Assembly (NCBI RefSeq): GCF_902652985.1
Contig: NC_047019.1
Span: 17,794,001 to 17,858,000 of the forward strand
Source of the DNA: Pecten maximus
Lineage: Eukaryota
Direction of reading: 5' to 3'
DNA length: 64,000 nt
This document shows positions 9,001-36,000 of this stretch, piece after piece (position 1 is the first letter of the stretch; every line of letters begins with the position of its first letter). The position numbers are program-made.

Positions 9001-12000
9001 TTACTATGCCATGCGATACAATCTCTCAAATTAGTACCCGGTTTGCTCCATCTACTCTCCATCCATCTTAACATTTGGCTATCTTTTTGTCACTTTGGCG
9101 ACCTCTTGACCTTGTGCGATTTCAATATATACCTGGTCAGACCCATATTTACCACCATCACAATGGTTATCTACAAGTTAGATGGCTATTCTTGAGCAGG
9201 CCGATCCTTTGTTGAACTAAATGACAGTTACTAGCCCAAGTTTCCTCTGACCCGGATACCATGTCCTACACCAGATGGTGTCAGGGCTAGAGGAAACTCG
9301 GGCTAGACAGCTACCTGATATGGGGAAATGACGTTAAGGAAGTCGAGTTAAGAGATTTCGTGTTTATGAGCTCATCTAATCACTATTTACATATACAAAT
9401 GCACCCTTATATTGAAAGGGGCTTCTATTAGATAAGCAAATATTTCCTGCAATTTCTAAATGAAACCTTATTTTTCGATCGAATTGGATGGAATATATGT
9501 ACTGCACATATATTACTACCAAATTCTCTGATAGAAATTGATATAATGATACATAAATCAATTCATCTTATCGCCTTGGTAGACCAATGTTTGATAGCAC
9601 AGGGACTTGGCCCGAGATCCAACACTCCATGGTCCATATATTTATGTATCGCCTTGGTATAATATGGGACATATGGAGTTCGACATCGGACCGAGAAGGA
9701 CCACCTAGCCGCGCCCATGTCCGTCCCAGGGAGATGTCCGGCCCTGTGGACGTACCGGATGGATAGGACAAGACTCGCCTGAGGGGGACACAGGCACCGG
9801 AGGCACTCGACCACCGCCCCCCTCACGTCGCCTGAACACAGCTCACGCCGTGGAAGGAGACGTTAAACCACTAACCAACATAATATGGAGCATGGGATCG
9901 GAATTATTACAATGTCCACTGGTTTGTTACATTAACCTGCAGCTATAATTTTCTAGAATGTATGTTCAAATATTTTTTGTCGCTAATATAGTAACTTACA
10001 ACAAGTGAAGGTGGTTATCGTAGGTAGGAAACTGAACAGTCATATGATTATTAACAATCTTTATTAAGATAACTAAAATTAACAAAAAATATATATAACT
10101 AACGCCTACAGTAAGTAACTTCTACGAACAAAATCAATATAAACCATAAAATCCCATTGTATAAGAGAATGTCATGGTTGTAAATTATTAATTATAGTCT
10201 ACAAGTTATAACGACAATATATGTTAGAACATGTAAATAATAAAATATCTTAAGCAAGTCTACTGCACGTTTTACCCTGAAAGAATCTGAGCTGGGATCC
10301 TGAACATAGTAAACGTAGACGATACCATAGTCAATATTGACCGAAATGTCCCCGTTATGAGATACCATGGTACCACGTCTGGTGATATATCCATTTACAT
10401 TTGATATAGTCATTTCACAGCTTTGTATCACAGCTTTAGGCACGTACACTTGTAAATATATGACACCAAATAATCCATATAAAAACATTAACGCATGCGC
10501 ACAATCACTACTTCCGGTTAATTTTATATCTACTGTTCCTGTTTTCTATCAAGTAAATTCAGGTTCACAGTAACTACAGTGTTAAGAGTACGACCCATCC
10601 ATTTCTAAATCAGCACCGACACTTCGACTTAGGCGTATAACACGAATCTTGGTCTAGATCGTCACAATATTAGAAACACTTTATCCTGACTTCCGGTGAT
10701 TGAAATATCTGCAATTGACATCCATTATCGAGGTCATGTGACACTCACACTTCATCAGTGGGTAGTTCAATGGCTCCTCTTCACCTTTACAAGTCGTTTT
10801 TTTCGATACCTGCTCTTAGCCCGCAATGAGAAGTGTTGTATAGTTCGAGTGGCGCATACCAAAACTACATCCCGACCCCCGGGACTGTCTGTTTGGTTGG
10901 TATGCTGCAGGGCCGGGATTTCGAGACTTGTCCTGTATGCTCCCACACCTAGGTCGAATGCTGTATGCTGGGGGTCTTGGGTTGTAGACTTCAGACTTGA
11001 TGACCCCATATGTCCCTGGGCCCGGGGATTTGCTATTACTTGCTGTCAGTGCTCGTCTGGTGCCTAAACTGTACATAGGAGCTTGTCTCTTACCACTCTG
11101 TACTGTTTTACCAATACCACCCGGCACTTTATAACAATTTGGCGCGGGTGTTCGTCCGGATTTCCTGCTTCGATGGCGACCCCCAAAGCTGAAGGCATTC
11201 CTAGGGTTAGAGTGCGACTTTTCGGTGTTGTACGCCCCTGGGCCAGGGCTGCCATGTTTGGACTTTGAAGGGTGACGCCCACTTATCGAATACTTGGGCG
11301 TACCATCAATCCCTGTCCTATACAGCTTGGAATTGGGAAAGTACTTACTCGGACCAGGACTTCGGTCCTTTTGGTTCCGTCCGACGCGATGACCAAAGGT
11401 ATGGGCAGGCTTCATCACATGAACACTCCGTGGGTCGTGAGATTTCTGCCCCACTAGACCAGGTAATCCGTAAACGGGCCCGGGACCCGAGAAGCTGGCT
11501 GCTATGGGGGCCCGAGGGCGGGTATGACGGTACGCCATATCTTTAAAGGAAGCTCTATATCACCTGTACAGAAGAATCAGTTCATCTCCGCCTCAGAGAT
11601 ACACCTGTGTGGAATTTCCGAGTTAAAAATTTCCCTGGTTGCCGTCCAGTCTCATTAAACTTTCATATAATATGAACACTGTCGAGTCACTAACTCGAGT
11701 ATACGTCCGATTTACATGTGTTTATCACGGAAATGACTCTTACCAACGCTGTAAACACGTCGGGCCTCAATCAAAACAAGAGTTGCTATATAATATAAGT
11801 GTTACGTGAGCTAGTACTAATATCGTGTGTAAATTTATTCGTGTAGACTGCATGTAGTGACTCGAAAACTCTGAACCGGAATCGTTCACATACGACACCA
11901 GTTTTTAAAGGTCCCACCTATGTACATAGGTATTTCTATTCTAAGGTATTGTACAGGTAGACACGGTTCAATACACATGTCCGCGAGCATATGTTTGAAC

Positions 12001-33000: not shown

Positions 33001-36000
33001 TATGATTAAACTGTTTTTGATTTTCAAAGTCTACAATTGTTATGGAAGCACTATTTATAGTGTTTGGACAGCAAACTTGGGTATGAGCGGCAAACCCGAT
33101 ATACCTCCAAACTCGTTATATGCCAAAATCACAGAGAACAGAAGGTGGTGATAAAGTCAGGTTTTACTGTAGTTTAAAATTTCAAGTTCAAAAACTGGTG
33201 TCAAAATTAAAATTTCATGTGTGCATAGCTTAATTTTGTACATAAGTAAACAATATATATGATGGACAATTTTATTGACATTTAGTATTGCCTAATGTTT
33301 TTGTTTTAAAGTCTCAATATTGTTTGATATTGATTTTACTGTCATTAAAAAAAGGAAAAAAATGACTAATACTGCACCATGTCTAATCATCACATCACTG
33401 TTTGATTCCATTAGTCATAGCATAAAAATCATTTTGATGTAAAATTTATTGAATATTATATATTAAATATATATGTATTTAATATTGTATCTATAGGGTC
33501 TAGTAAGTAATAACGGTGGAATAGTCCAATATAGGTATCGGATCCTAACATTCAATATTGTATCTGTATATATATATCATATCATCTAATAGACGACTTC
33601 CACAATGATCATGTCAAAATATTGGGCCGACTGTCACTGCGCCATTGAAACATTCTTTTTAAGAACACTGATGTGGCGCAGCGGTATAAGCTGCAGGTAT
33701 TTCTGGCTAGTCGATTGGGTGACGTAGATCGCGAGTTTGAGGCCAGGTCAGGGCACGAGTCATAAAGTTGTCTTTCTTATTTGTTATATGCATATATATT
33801 ATAGAATCTGTGCTCTAGATCCCATACTATGTTAAGGAATTAAATTTGAAATAGATATTGTATGAATACTCGTTCACAATTTTTTTCTGGTTGTCCTCGG
33901 TCAGTATTTTTTCTCATGTTAATAAAACGATGTATTGACCTTATGAAAAGGCTATAATTGTATCTAAAAATCTAATTCCAGGCCTTAAAGACACTAAGCC
34001 AGAAGCTTGATTTTGCTCACAACAAGAAGTGTGGTTATGTTACCTTCTGTCCCACCAACCTTGGCACCACCTGCAGGGCTAGTGTCCACATCAAGGTCCC
34101 CAAGCTGGCTGCTGCTCCATCTACCGAAGGAAACAAGAGCAAGCTGGAAGACATCTGTGCTAAATTTAATTTGCAACCCAGAGGTGAGGATGTAATAGTG
34201 TCAAATCCTGGCTTGAAGATATGAAATGGTGTTGAAACAAGAGTTAACTGGTTTCTATGGTAACACAGTTCAACCAAACATCAAATACCTTACTGGTTTC
34301 TATGGTAACACAGTTCAACCAAACATCAAATACCATACTGGTTTCTATGGTAACACAGTTCAACCAAACATCTAGTACCTTACTGGTTTCTATGGTAACA
34401 CAGTTCAACCAAACATCTAGTACCTTACTGGTTTCTATGGTAACACAGTTCAACCAAACATCTAGTACCTTACTGGTTTCTATGGTAACACAGTTCAACC
34501 AAACATCTAGTACCTTACTGGTTTCTATGGTAACACAGTTCAACCAAACATCAAATACCTTACTGGTTTCTATGGTAACACAGTTCAACCAAACATCAAA
34601 TACCTTACTGGTTTCTATGGTAACACAGTTCAACCAAACATCAAATACCTTACTGGTTTCTATGGTAACACAGTTCAACCAAACATCTAGTACCTTACTG
34701 GTTTCTATGGTAACACAGTTCAACCAAACATCTAGTACCTTACTGGTTTCTATGGTAACACAGTTCAACCAAACATCTAGTACCTTACTGGTTTCTATGG
34801 TAACACAGTTCAACCAAACATCAAATACCTTACTGGTTTCTATGGTAACACAGTTCAACCAAACATCTAGTACCTTACTGGTTTCTATGGTAACACAGTT
34901 CAACCAAACATCTAGTATCTTACTGGTTTTATGGTAACACAGTTCAACCAAACATTAGTACTGCTGTTTAACATACATCTAATAATTAAATATTGGTTTC
35001 TTTTGTTTTGAAAAGATGGGAAGATTACAGTTAAATACAACATGAACTTTTTTCTGCACAAACACAGAATGATACTGACATTAACAATGTTTTAATTTAT
35101 TTCAGGAATCCACGGTGAGCACACAGAAAGTGTAGGAGGTGTGTATGATATCTCCAACAAGAGGAGACTGGGTCTGAGCGAGCTTGAGGCTATCATGGAA
35201 ATGAAGAACGGAATTGTAGAAGTCATGAAAGCAGAGAAAGCTTTATAGACTGAACTGAATTTTGTAAAAATATTGAAGGACCCAATATGACTATGTTAAA
35301 CAAATGTTATGTGTGACCAAAACTCCTAGAAAATGGTATGATATTGAATATGCTCTTGTCTAGATTGTTCTGCTGGAAAAGGGATGCTGCTGTCGATATA
35401 TTTGTGTGTTACATTAACATCAGCGGTTAGAACACCTGGGATCATATTGCCTCAAGAATTTGCCTCCGATGCCGAAAATGTTCTGTTACAATCTAGATCT
35501 GTGCGCTGAATTGATACCTGCATGTTAAGACCAGTTGTGGGATCCAGGATATGGTGCAGCAGTCTAGAAAAGGTGGAAATGATTCAATATTGTCACCATT
35601 TTCCTATTCCTTTGTATATATATTTATAAACTGTTATCCTCTAGTGTGAAATCCTTATGTGGGGTCTGCTAGATCACTTTCTGGAGATCCGATTGCTGGC
35701 TTACACCCTTTCATACTCACATCCTTCCATCCAATCAGTGGAAAGCCAGCCAGATGCATACATCTGATTGGTTGGTGGCCATCAAAGGCAACAAATCTAA
35801 TTGGTTGGTGGCCATGGGATGCTGATATCTGATTGGTTGATAGCCATCGGATGCACCTTGTTGTATAATGTATTTGCATAGTAATTAAAAAGCTGTGTGC
35901 CAAAATAAGCTGTGAGTAATAAATACAAAACGCATGTAGTCATTCCTGGAAATGAGACGTTAAAAAAAACAGACATTTTACAACTTATCTTCTTTTTTGC

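What the first reader, a model, noticed from the sequence alone, without database searches (positions are those of the whole stretch)
10816..35248. Candidate flagellar structure-plus-energy gene cluster: two CIMAP1/ODF3 paralogues head-to-head with an arginine kinase, all with RFX-type sites
Seen: ODF3-a and ODF3-b (minus strand) and AK (plus strand) are adjacent, and ODF3-b and AK diverge across 5.6 kb. There is a perfect X-box at 12222-12235, an X-box-like palindrome at 19348, an RFX-like half site at 24536 and the intronic X-box array. Established: SHIPPO/PGPG-repeat proteins decorate axonemal doublets, and phosphagen kinases shuttle energy along flagella and cilia. Inference: this AK is a ciliary or sperm isoform co-regulated with the axonemal genes rather than the muscle isoform.
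Basis: partly seen in the sequence, partly recalled or inferred. Interest (0 to 1): 0.65.

Follow-up and report, generated by a model that had tools for sequence, protein, structure and literature searches.

The report
Scallop ODF3 genes beside arginine kinase
Two intact sperm-tail (ODF3/CIMAP1) genes sit next to an arginine kinase gene in a scallop genome and stay neighbours in other scallops, but nothing in the sequence shows that the kinase is a sperm or cilia form switched on together with them.

Summary
ODF3-a (10816-11538, minus strand, 240 aa) and ODF3-b (18360-19112, minus, 250 aa) are single-ORF CIMAP1/ODF3 paralogues. The arginine kinase (AK) is on the plus strand, with six coding exons (24620-35248) encoding 392 aa. 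It is identical, wherever tblastn stayed within exons, to RefSeq XP_033740200.1 of Pecten maximus.

The RFX evidence is weaker than stated. Site 12222 fits only a loose nematode-type consensus. Sites 19348 and 24536 are not matches. The "array" is one 45-bp minisatellite in AK intron 5. No X-box lies within 1 kb upstream of ODF3-b or the AK. The 5.5-kb divergent spacer is 44% tandem repeats, and the AK has its own CCAAT and TATA boxes.

Two exact X-box matches lie upstream of ODF3-a. The AK carries a conserved 28-aa N-terminal extension that also occurs in exon-1 ORFs from unnamed contigs.

Which tissue uses this AK could not be tested, and no readable paper gave expression for individual AK paralogues. 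Verdict: an ordinary, annotated, conserved neighbourhood. The sperm or ciliary AK reading is unproven.

The parts
10816..11538 (-). ODF3-a: single-ORF CIMAP1/ODF3 paralogue, 240 aa, of scallop clade 'a'
   Evidence: ORF. Pfam SHIPPO-rpt, E 5.2e-17. 90% identical to A. farreri ODF3 ANS60498, with Argopecten and Mizuhopecten members in the same 90% cluster. Matches PDB CIMAP1 chains. Clade a has 100/100 bootstrap support.
12222..12235 (-). Exact match to the loose X-box consensus GTHNYYATRRNAAC, 684 bp upstream of the ODF3-a ATG
   Evidence: Not a match to GTNRCCNNRGYAAC at <=1 mismatch.
12965..12978 (-). Second exact match to the same consensus, AT-rich, 1,427 bp upstream of the ODF3-a ATG.
   Evidence: Two matches in 11539-13070 give shuffle P 0.003.
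13071..17308 (.). Block of 40-bp-period satellites that fills most of the ODF3-a/ODF3-b spacer
   Evidence: TRF. Tandem repeats cover 4,012 of 6,821 bp of the spacer.
18360..19112 (-). ODF3-b: single-ORF CIMAP1/ODF3 paralogue, 250 aa, of scallop clade 'b'
   Evidence: ORF. Pfam SHIPPO-rpt, E 8.6e-19. 86% identical to Argopecten and 78% to Ylistrum. PDB 8snb ODF3, E 1e-70. Clade b has 100/100 support.
19347..19361 (.). It contains CCTAGG but is not an X-box match.
   Evidence: Sequence read. Absent from both consensus scans at <=1 mismatch.
20298..22019 (.). 63-bp minisatellite (27 copies) inside the ODF3-b/AK divergent spacer. Smaller arrays lie at 22390-22833 and 23296-23532.
   Evidence: TRF. 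Tandem repeats cover 2,403 of 5,507 bp of the spacer.
24536..24541 (+).
   Evidence: Background is 0.53 such half-sites per kb.
24552..24600 (+). CCAAT (24552-24556) and TATAAAA (24594-24600) just upstream of the AK first ATG. A possible splice acceptor ...ccag ends at 24583.
   Evidence: Sequence read; motif scan. Their use as a promoter is inferred.
24620..24878 (+). AK coding exon 1. Codons 1-28 are the N-terminal extension, Met29 is the usual AK start, then the N-domain begins.
28085..28344 (+). AK coding exon 2 (rest of the N-terminal domain and the start of the catalytic domain)
31184..31332 (+). AK coding exon 3
31644..31809 (+). AK coding exon 4
33982..34183 (+). AK coding exon 5. It holds the reactive-cysteine motif CPTNLGT and a 7-residue insertion relative to the best PDB match (4wo8 domain 1).
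34247..34961 (.). 45-bp minisatellite in AK intron 5, 15.9 copies.
35106..35248 (+). AK coding exon 6 with the stop codon

Best explanation
This is an ordinary, inherited gene neighbourhood of scallops (Pectinidae), not a demonstrated regulatory unit.

Two intact, single-coding-exon CIMAP1/ODF3 paralogues are present. Clades a and b are lineage-specific and distinct from the canonical 252-aa gene elsewhere on the same chromosome. They lie upstream of the first gene of a tandem AK cluster and point away from it. The ODF3 proteins most likely decorate axonemal doublet microtubules, as their solved relatives do (inferred). ODF3-a may have RFX input through two upstream X-box matches (inferred).

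The AK is a catalytically complete, mollusc-type arginine kinase with its own proximal CCAAT and TATA elements. Its exon 1 offers two conserved start codons. A long form (392 aa) begins with a conserved M-Y-R-x-Y motif. A short form would begin at Met29. Because the TATA box lies 26 nt before the first ATG, a TATA-driven transcript would start at or just past that ATG and give the short form, while transcripts starting further upstream give the long form (inferred).

The intronic 'X-box array' is a young minisatellite whose unit happens to fit the consensus. Whether RFX proteins use it is unknown.
For: - Gene models and family membership.
- Already annotated: the window's AK exons 1, 2, 3 and 6 are 100% identical to RefSeq XP_033740200.1. 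The mismatches reported for exons 4 and 5 (6 and 2) lie in stretches where tblastn ran past the GT-AG borders into introns.
- Linkage in scallops. Mizuhopecten has OWF37576 (ODF3-a), OWF37578 (AK391) and OWF37579 (two-domain AK) on one 1.99-Mb scaffold. Ylistrum has XP_060082036 (ODF3-b), XP_060082029 (AK392) and XP_060082030 (AK372) on one 872-kb contig. Argopecten has XP_069135282 (a), XP_069135295 (b) and XP_069135306 (AK392) on one chromosome, numbered in the window's gene order.
- Three ODF3 clades, with bootstrap support 100, 100 and 99 of 100.
- No shared promoter signal. There are 0 X-box matches in the 1 kb upstream of ODF3-b and of the AK. Upstream regions share nothing better than E 0.3 (3' flanks 0.11). 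Spacers are 44% and 59% tandem repeat.
- Outside the array, X-box matches at <=1 mismatch number 19 against 18.7 expected.
- Two start codons. The extension is kept in 4 of 4 full-length scallop AK392 orthologues. The A. farreri cDNA-derived protein starts at the Met29 equivalent. An internal Met is found in all 14 sequences examined, though in P0272 it does not align with Met29.
Against: - Conserved linkage could reflect functional constraint rather than inertia.
- The two X-box matches upstream of ODF3-a (P 0.003) and the X-box inside the minisatellite unit (P 0.006) are nominally above chance within this window.
- A conserved N-terminal extension is what a targeted isoform would look like.
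- No expression, transcription-start or localisation data were available, so the promoter and isoform steps are inferred.
- Adjacency in the other scallops is inferred from shared contigs and close accession numbers, not from coordinates.
Confidence: 0.55

Rival explanations
1. This AK is the ciliary or sperm-flagellar phosphagen kinase of scallops. RFX factors switch it on together with the two ODF3 paralogues, through the X-boxes upstream of ODF3-a and the 15-copy X-box array in AK intron 5. A different AK paralogue serves muscle.
For: - Linkage is conserved in Argopecten, Ylistrum and Mizuhopecten.
- X-box matches are nominally enriched upstream of ODF3-a and in the minisatellite unit.
- Scallops have other AK paralogues that could serve muscle: 351-, 358/372- and two- or three-domain forms. 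A review cites four AK genes in P. yessoensis (PMC11492440, passages).
- Phosphagen kinases do act in flagella (PMC4517888 passages; PMC6429109 passages).
Against: - No X-box lies within 1 kb upstream of the AK or ODF3-b, and the sites claimed at 19348 and 24536 fail.
- The array is a single sequence amplified recently (97% identity), so it counts as one event.
- The AK has a CCAAT/TATA-type proximal region.
- Its A. farreri orthologue is the AK that was cloned from that species. From memory only, that paper reported highest expression in muscle; it is not held.
- Evolutionary rate does not set this paralogue apart: 84-89% identity between genera for all the AK paralogues compared.
Confidence: 0.15
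2. Two-isoform model. One gene yields a short, general or muscle AK from the TATA-proximal start, translated from Met29. It also yields a long AK carrying the conserved M-Y-R-x-Y extension from an upstream start. The long form would be directed to a particular compartment, such as the flagellum, the cilium, mitochondria or myofibrils. Under this model the reader is right for one isoform only.
For: - Both the first ATG and an internal Met are conserved.
- The TATAAAA box sits 26 nt upstream of the first ATG.
- Transcript-length contigs encode the long form (P0126 on 2,349 nt, P0128 on 2,642 nt), whereas the A. farreri cDNA protein starts at the internal Met.
- Nine unnamed representatives, all 81-133 aa (exon-1-length ORFs), begin with the same motif. 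The seven shown in alignment A3 end at the exon-1 border. One of them (P0248) continues like the N-terminus of clam two-domain AKs.
- T. brucei targets an AK to the flagellum by an N-terminal insertion.
Against: - The extension has no Pfam match even at E<=10.
- It is not consistently amphipathic (shuffle P 0.04-0.74) and its net charge ranges from -1 to +3, so it is unlike a classical mitochondrial presequence.
- It shows no similarity to any known targeting signal in my tests.
- No transcription-start data exist. The unnamed exon-1 ORFs are ORF calls, not evidence of translation.
Confidence: 0.2
3. Artefact or decay. The ODF3 ORFs are dead retrocopies, or the AK model is a mis-annotation.
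For: Both ODF3 coding regions lack introns, as retrocopies do. ODF3-a is only 47-48% identical to the canonical gene.
Against: - Both ORFs are full length with no stops, and each keeps five PGP motifs.
- ODF3-a is 89-92% identical to its Mizuhopecten and Argopecten orthologues, as conserved as the canonical gene at 86-87%.
- The AK exons sum to a whole number of codons, have GT-AG borders and match a RefSeq protein.
Confidence: 0.02

Closest known systems
CIMAP1A/ODF3 (SHIPPO1) family, as seen in cryo-EM structures of sperm doublet microtubules (PDB 8snb, 8iyj, 8otz)
   Same: Both window proteins align over their whole length with these chains (ODF3-b E 1e-70 to 8snb; ODF3-a E 2e-32 to 8otz CIMAP1B). 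Both carry the Pfam SHIPPO repeat and five PGP motifs.
   Different: They are scallop-specific extra paralogues (240 and 250 aa) alongside the canonical 252-aa gene. Each has a single coding exon. ODF3-a has a long stem branch and is only 47-48% identical to the canonical protein. Their location in the cell is untested.
Bivalve arginine kinases, including A. farreri AK (UniProt K4F5B8) and the two-domain AKs of clams and scallops
   Same: Both phosphagen-kinase domains and the CPTNLGT cysteine motif are present. The best PDB matches are taurocyamine kinase and AK structures. The protein groups with the A. farreri AK at 100/100 bootstrap support.
   Different: It carries a 28-aa extension ahead of the usual start, which the A. 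farreri entry lacks. It has one domain, unlike its neighbours with two or three.
Flagellar arginine kinase of Trypanosoma brucei (PMC4517888)
   Same: Each is one paralogue among several that is set apart by an N-terminal addition. In T. brucei that addition specifies flagellar targeting (abstract and passages).
   Different: I did not compare the two extensions and make no claim of relatedness. Targeting of the scallop form is untested. The scallop motif also occurs in nine unnamed exon-1 ORF representatives, one of which continues like clam two-domain AKs.
RFX/DAF-19 X-box regulon of ciliary genes (consensus recalled from memory, not drawn from any call)
   Same: An axonemal gene (ODF3-a) has two consensus matches upstream.
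   Different: The matches lie 684 and 1,427 bp from the ATG. Neither fits the stricter consensus. ODF3-b and the AK have none nearby. Neither conservation nor binding has been tested.
Sperm phosphocreatine shuttle of sea urchins (Tombes and Shapiro; seen only in reference lists and a passage)
   Same: The idea of a phosphagen kinase supplying the flagellum is the same.
   Different: It uses a different enzyme, creatine kinase. There is no evidence here that this AK is in sperm.

Membership tests
CIMAP1/ODF3 (SHIPPO) family | Pfam SHIPPO-rpt (PF07004) above the curated cut-off | tested here: met
   ODF3-a scored 62.1 bits and ODF3-b 67.6 bits against a cut-off of 20.
CIMAP1/ODF3 (SHIPPO) family | Full-length similarity to CIMAP1 chains of solved doublet microtubules | tested here: met
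   Each protein gave 6 PDB sequences at E<=0.001, covering residues 3-249 (ODF3-b) and 3-238 (ODF3-a).
CIMAP1/ODF3 (SHIPPO) family | Location on axonemal doublets in sperm or cilia | not testable with these tools
   Needs proteomics or imaging.
Arginine kinase (phosphagen kinase) | N-terminal and C-terminal ATP:guanido phosphotransferase domains | tested here: met
   Searched exon by exon: exons 1-2 match PF02807 and exons 3-4 match PF00217. The identical RefSeq protein P0394 has both domains.
Arginine kinase (phosphagen kinase) | Reactive-cysteine motif CP(T/S)NLGT | tested here: met
   Exon 5 reads FCPTNLGTT, aligned with the same motif in 4wo8.
Arginine kinase (phosphagen kinase) | Closer to arginine/taurocyamine kinases than to creatine, glycocyamine or lombricine kinases | tested here: met
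   For exon 2, AK and TK structures score E 1e-18 to 2e-37, while creatine-kinase-type structures score E>=2e-07. The pattern is the same for exon 5.
Arginine kinase (phosphagen kinase) | Arginine as the actual substrate | not testable with these tools
   Needs an enzyme assay. Its neighbours are named 'taurocyamine kinase-like' by automatic annotation.
RFX (X-box) ciliary regulon | X-box close to the start of each co-regulated gene | tested here: not met
   The 1 kb upstream of each ATG holds 1 exact match for ODF3-a, 0 for ODF3-b and 0 for the AK. The claimed sites at 19348 and 24536 fail at <=1 mismatch.
RFX (X-box) ciliary regulon | More X-box matches than chance | tested here: inconclusive
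   Outside the array there are 3 exact matches against 0.79 expected, and 19 against 18.7 at <=1 mismatch. Local tests give P 0.003 and 0.006, both post hoc.
RFX (X-box) ciliary regulon | Sites conserved in orthologous positions; RFX occupancy | not testable with these tools
   No mollusc genome DNA could be reached; genome contigs holds only bacteria and archaea.
Bidirectional (shared) promoter pair | Divergent starts less than about 1 kb apart (threshold recalled from memory) | tested here: not met
   5,507 bp separate the ATGs, of which 2,403 bp are tandem repeats.
Flagellar or ciliary phosphagen kinase | Targeting addition, such as an N-terminal insertion or an acylation signal | tested here: inconclusive
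   A conserved 28-aa extension exists. It has no known domain, no Gly2 for myristoylation (sequence read) and no consistent amphipathic character.
Flagellar or ciliary phosphagen kinase | Presence in sperm or cilia and enrichment over muscle | not testable with these tools
   No paralogue-level expression appeared in the 15 papers I could open. Yang et al. 2020 (Aquat Toxicol 222:105452) is not held.
Retrogene (for ODF3-a and ODF3-b) | Intronless coding region, with an intron-bearing parent gene elsewhere | tested here: inconclusive
   Both have a single-ORF CDS. The canonical 252-aa gene is on the same 51.4-Mb contig, but its intron structure could not be read.

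The most novel reading that the evidence does not exclude
Bivalve arginine kinase genes may carry an old, conserved alternative N-terminus: M-Y-R/K-x-Y, then a Q/S-rich linker, then the usual Met. This would give a long, compartment-targeted isoform alongside the ordinary one. In scallops the gene encoding it would be kept next to two lineage-specific sperm-axoneme genes because the long form supplies the flagellum or cilium, with the intronic X-box minisatellite acting as an RFX-responsive enhancer.
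Probability: 0.12. Interest if true: 0.6.

Novelty: new member of a known kind. Interest (0 to 1): 0.3.

Why it matters
If the AK, or its long isoform, really were the flagellar energy shuttle enzyme, scallops would offer a compact and conserved locus for studying how axoneme structure and energy supply are co-ordinated in a spiralian. The conserved N-terminal motif would then be a candidate targeting signal shared across bivalves.

As the evidence stands, the locus is an annotated pair of gene families in conserved synteny. Its main practical value is as a marker of a scallop-specific ODF3 duplication and of the start of the AK tandem cluster. It is also a caution: a minisatellite can inflate motif counts.

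Tried and rejected
- Ideal palindromic X-box at <=2 mismatches: 0 matches.
- Muscle-type motifs (MEF2, CArG, CAGCTG) in the 1 kb upstream of the AK: 0, 0 and 0, so no support for a muscle promoter either.
- Shared sequence among the three upstream regions and the two ODF3 3' flanks: nothing better than E 0.11.
- Inverted repeats in 10000-36000: 0 pairs.
- Rfam and tRNA scans of the window: 0 hits.
- Evolutionary rate as a proxy for expression level: all AK paralogues are 84-89% identical between scallop genera, so it does not discriminate.
- Amphipathic helix or presequence reading of the extension: not consistent across 14 sequences.
- My recalled impression that the ~100-aa N-terminal additions of some 445-487-aa AKs (P0157, P0173, P0176, P0177) resemble a Dpy-30/RIIa docking domain: Pfam gave no such match even at E<=10.
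- Atlas look-alikes for residues 1-32: only generic helices, no lead.
- Structure prediction of the full protein: the tool was not accepting jobs, so I did not model the extension.
- Literature: 10 of 10 searches used. None gave paralogue-specific AK expression in a scallop. 'ODF3' together with 'Chlamys farreri' returned 0 papers. Shi et al. 2012, Takeuchi et al. 2004 and Yang et al. 2020 are not held.
- Linkage outside scallops, judged by shared contig length only. Lottia: separate scaffolds. Patella caerulea: different chromosome-size contigs. Gigantopelta and Babylonia: the same chromosome-size contig. This gives no evidence of tight linkage.

Full report
WHAT THE WINDOW IS

The DNA is from a scallop. 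The best named relatives of every gene are Pectinidae. The proteins the window encodes are recorded on a 51,398,101-base contig that also carries proteins named Pecten maximus. The AK exons are identical to RefSeq XP_033740200.1, 'arginine kinase Oct f 2-like [Pecten maximus]', wherever tblastn stayed within exons. Nothing suggested human sequence. One run of 198 N (60223-60420) was left as it is.

THE THREE GENES

ODF3-a (10816-11538, minus strand, 240 aa) and ODF3-b (18360-19112, minus, 250 aa) are uninterrupted ORFs.
- Both match Pfam SHIPPO-rpt.
- Both align over their whole length with the CIMAP1/ODF3 chains built into cryo-EM maps of sperm doublet microtubules (8snb, 8iyj, 8otz). There were 6 PDB sequences at E<=0.001 for each.

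The AK lies on the plus strand. I searched its model exon by exon and left the joined step out. Where a full-length protein was needed I used the database proteins P0126 and P0394.
- tblastn with 11 AK relatives placed six coding exons.
- Reading the borders gave GT-AG introns and these exons: 24620-24878, 28085-28344, 31184-31332, 31644-31809, 33982-34183 and 35106-35248. They total 1179 nt, or 392 codons plus a stop.
- Exons 1 to 4 match the two phosphagen-kinase Pfam domains.
- Exons 2 and 5 match arginine and taurocyamine kinase structures far better than creatine-kinase-type ones.
- Exon 5 holds the CPTNLGT cysteine motif.
- Exon 6 was checked only by tblastn (100% to P0126 and P0394).

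The finding's outer coordinates are the two stop codons, so they are correct.

THE RFX CLAIMS

Exact matches to GTHNYYATRRNAAC number 33, against 0.79 expected. Thirty of them are 15 sites counted on both strands inside a single 45-bp minisatellite (34247-34961, 15.9 copies, 97% identical). That array sits in AK intron 5. The other three exact matches are at 12222, 12965 and 61122.

At <=1 mismatch, 19 matches lie outside the array against 18.7 expected. With the stricter GTNRCCNNRGYAAC at <=1 mismatch, 15 of 17 matches are in the array and none is at 12222, 19348 or 24536. The ideal palindrome has no match within 2 mismatches.

- The 'perfect X-box' at 12222 is perfect only against the loosest consensus and only on the minus strand. 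It lies 684 bp from the ODF3-a ATG.
- The site at 19348 is a CCTAGG palindrome, not an X-box.
- The site at 24536 is one GTTGCT half-site, a motif found 0.53 times per kb in the window.

The chance that any of the 19 repeat units in the window carries a match is 0.006. Both tests were chosen after seeing the data. An RFX input to an axonemal gene such as ODF3-a would be unremarkable.

IS THERE A SHARED CONTROL REGION?

ODF3-b and the AK diverge, but 5,507 bp separate their ATGs and 2,403 of those are tandem repeats. The ODF3-a/ODF3-b spacer is 4,012 of 6,821 bp repeat.
- The 1 kb upstream of ODF3-b and of the AK holds no X-box match. It also holds no MEF2, CArG or CAGCTG match, so it is equally silent about a muscle promoter.
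- The three upstream regions share nothing better than E 0.3.
- The AK has CCAAT at 24552 and TATAAAA at 24594-24600, the latter 26 nt before its first ATG.

CONSERVED LINKAGE

- Mizuhopecten: the ODF3-a orthologue (OWF37576), the 391-aa AK (OWF37578) and a two-domain AK (OWF37579) are on one 1.99-Mb scaffold.
- Ylistrum: the ODF3-b orthologue (XP_060082036), AK392 (XP_060082029) and a 372-aa AK (XP_060082030) are on one 872-kb contig.
- Argopecten: ODF3-a (XP_069135282), ODF3-b (XP_069135295) and AK392 (XP_069135306) are on one chromosome, numbered in the window's order.

Adjacency is inferred from shared contigs and close accession numbers, because I could not read coordinates. Outside scallops I saw no tight linkage. 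Among four gastropods, two have AK and ODF3 on different contigs and two share a chromosome-size contig.

THE ODF3 PARALOGUES

A neighbour-joining tree of 26 proteins (251 columns) gives three scallop clades: a (240 aa) at 100/100, b (250 aa) at 100/100, and the canonical 252-aa clade c at 99/100. Their mutual order is unresolved (a+b 52/100).

ODF3-a is only 47-48% identical to the canonical protein. Yet it is 89-92% identical to its Mizuhopecten and Argopecten orthologues, as well conserved as the canonical gene (86-87%). It is therefore a working gene that diverged early.

The canonical P. maximus gene is on the same 51.4-Mb contig but not in the window. Two adjacent paralogues with single coding exons suggest a retrocopy that then duplicated in tandem. 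This is inference only, since I could not read the intron structure of the canonical gene.

THE AK PARALOGUE

In a tree of 23 AK sequences or domains (350 columns), the window's type groups with the Ylistrum, Argopecten-type (P0128) and Mizuhopecten 391/392-aa proteins and with the A. farreri AK (K4F5B8, 366 aa) at 100/100.

Scallops have further AKs: 351-aa, 358/372-aa and two-domain forms, plus a 1115-aa P. maximus model with three AK domains on the same contig. A review states that four AK genes were found in P. yessoensis (PMC11492440, passages). The primary paper is not held.

All the paralogues compared are 84-89% identical between genera, so rate does not mark any one of them as the abundant muscle enzyme. 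The C. farreri genome paper reports 'arginine kinase' at 34,704 TPM in striated muscle without naming the gene in the text I could read (PMC5700196, passages; supplements closed). From memory only, the A. farreri cloning paper found highest expression in muscle, but I could not open it. Which tissue uses this AK therefore stays open.

AN UNEXPECTED FEATURE: THE N-TERMINAL EXTENSION

Exon 1 starts 28 codons ahead of the Met at which other mollusc AKs begin.
- The extension is kept with few changes in 4 of 4 full-length scallop orthologues. The A. farreri entry starts at the internal Met.
- A search of 1.84 billion representatives with the exon-1 peptide found 179 proteins at E<=0.001. Of the 150 listed, 6 align from residue 1.
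All are 81-133 aa, the length expected of an exon-1 ORF. The seven shown in alignment A3 stop being AK-like at the exon-1 border.
- One of them (P0248) continues like the N-terminus of clam two-domain AKs.
- An internal Met was found in all 14 sequences examined, though in P0272 it does not align with Met29.
- An Elysia AK starts MYARY.

The motif is therefore older than scallops and changes conservatively (R/K, L/I/V), as coding sequence does.

It has no Pfam match at E<=10. It is not consistently amphipathic and has a net charge of -1 to +3. The Atlas gave no lead. I could not model it because structure prediction was not accepting jobs.

Because the TATA box sits 26 nt before the first ATG, a TATA-driven transcript would begin at or just past that ATG and encode the short form. 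Transcript-length contigs (P0126, P0128) encode the long form. Two isoforms from two start sites is my inference, and it is not shown. The nearest functional parallel is the flagellar AK of T. brucei, which is targeted by an N-terminal insertion (PMC4517888, abstract and passages). I did not compare the two extensions.

VERDICT

The genes, their order and their orientation hold, but the RFX sites largely do not. The interpretation cannot be decided with the data I could reach.

My best reading (0.55) is an inherited scallop neighbourhood of already annotated genes with separate control. ODF3-a plausibly has RFX input, and the AK has its own proximal promoter and possibly two isoforms.

On novelty, these are new members of known families in a conserved arrangement, and the extension motif is a modest side observation. 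Interest is 0.3.

Noticed in passing
window 24620-24703 (AK exon 1, codons 1-28); proteins P0242, P0245, P0246, P0248, P0252, P0255, P0272, P0275, P0288, P0141: A conserved alternative N-terminus (M-Y-R/K-x-Y, then a Q/S-rich linker, then an internal Met) precedes the usual AK start. It recurs in exon-1 ORFs from unnamed contigs. One of these continues like clam two-domain AKs, and an Elysia AK starts MYARY. No known domain matches it.
   Followed up: partly
window 12965-12978: A second exact match to the loose X-box consensus lies upstream of ODF3-a. Together with the site at 12222, this makes two matches in 1.5 kb (post hoc shuffle P 0.003).
   Followed up: partly
not in the window: protein P0232 (XP_033741728.1) on the same 51.4-Mb contig: A 1115-aa P. 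maximus model holds three complete AK domains, where Argopecten and Mizuhopecten have two. It is either a true three-domain AK or a fused gene model.
   Followed up: partly
window 37373-38816 and 38959-39407: A 21-bp AT-rich satellite forms two arrays in opposite orientation about 140 bp apart. The arms are up to 330 nt long and 85% complementary.
   Followed up: partly
window 6870-8814, 13071-17308, 20298-22019: Very large minisatellites are present: 26 bp x 75 copies, 40 bp x about 90 copies in three blocks, and 63 bp x 27 copies. They create long spurious ORFs of up to 613 aa on both strands.
   Followed up: no
window 48676-49068 (+): An ORF matches the C-terminal part of the ubiquitin carboxyl-terminal hydrolase domain (Pfam UCH, E 8e-12). 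It is probably the last exon of a USP gene downstream of the AK.
   Followed up: no
window 54896-55723 (+): A 275-aa ORF carries a DZIP3/hRUL138-like HEPN domain (Pfam PF18738, E 4e-26).
   Followed up: no
window 60223-60420: A run of 198 N (assembly gap or masked stretch). It was left untouched.
   Followed up: no
window 2569-3243 (-): A 224-aa ORF with no Pfam match. I did not examine it further.
   Followed up: no
proteins P0157, P0167, P0173, P0176-P0179 (unnamed sources): Some AK relatives of 445-487 aa carry additions of about 100 or more residues ahead of the AK domains. Their start reminded me of a docking domain, but for the four I scanned (P0157, P0173, P0176, P0177) Pfam gave no such match.
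   Followed up: partly
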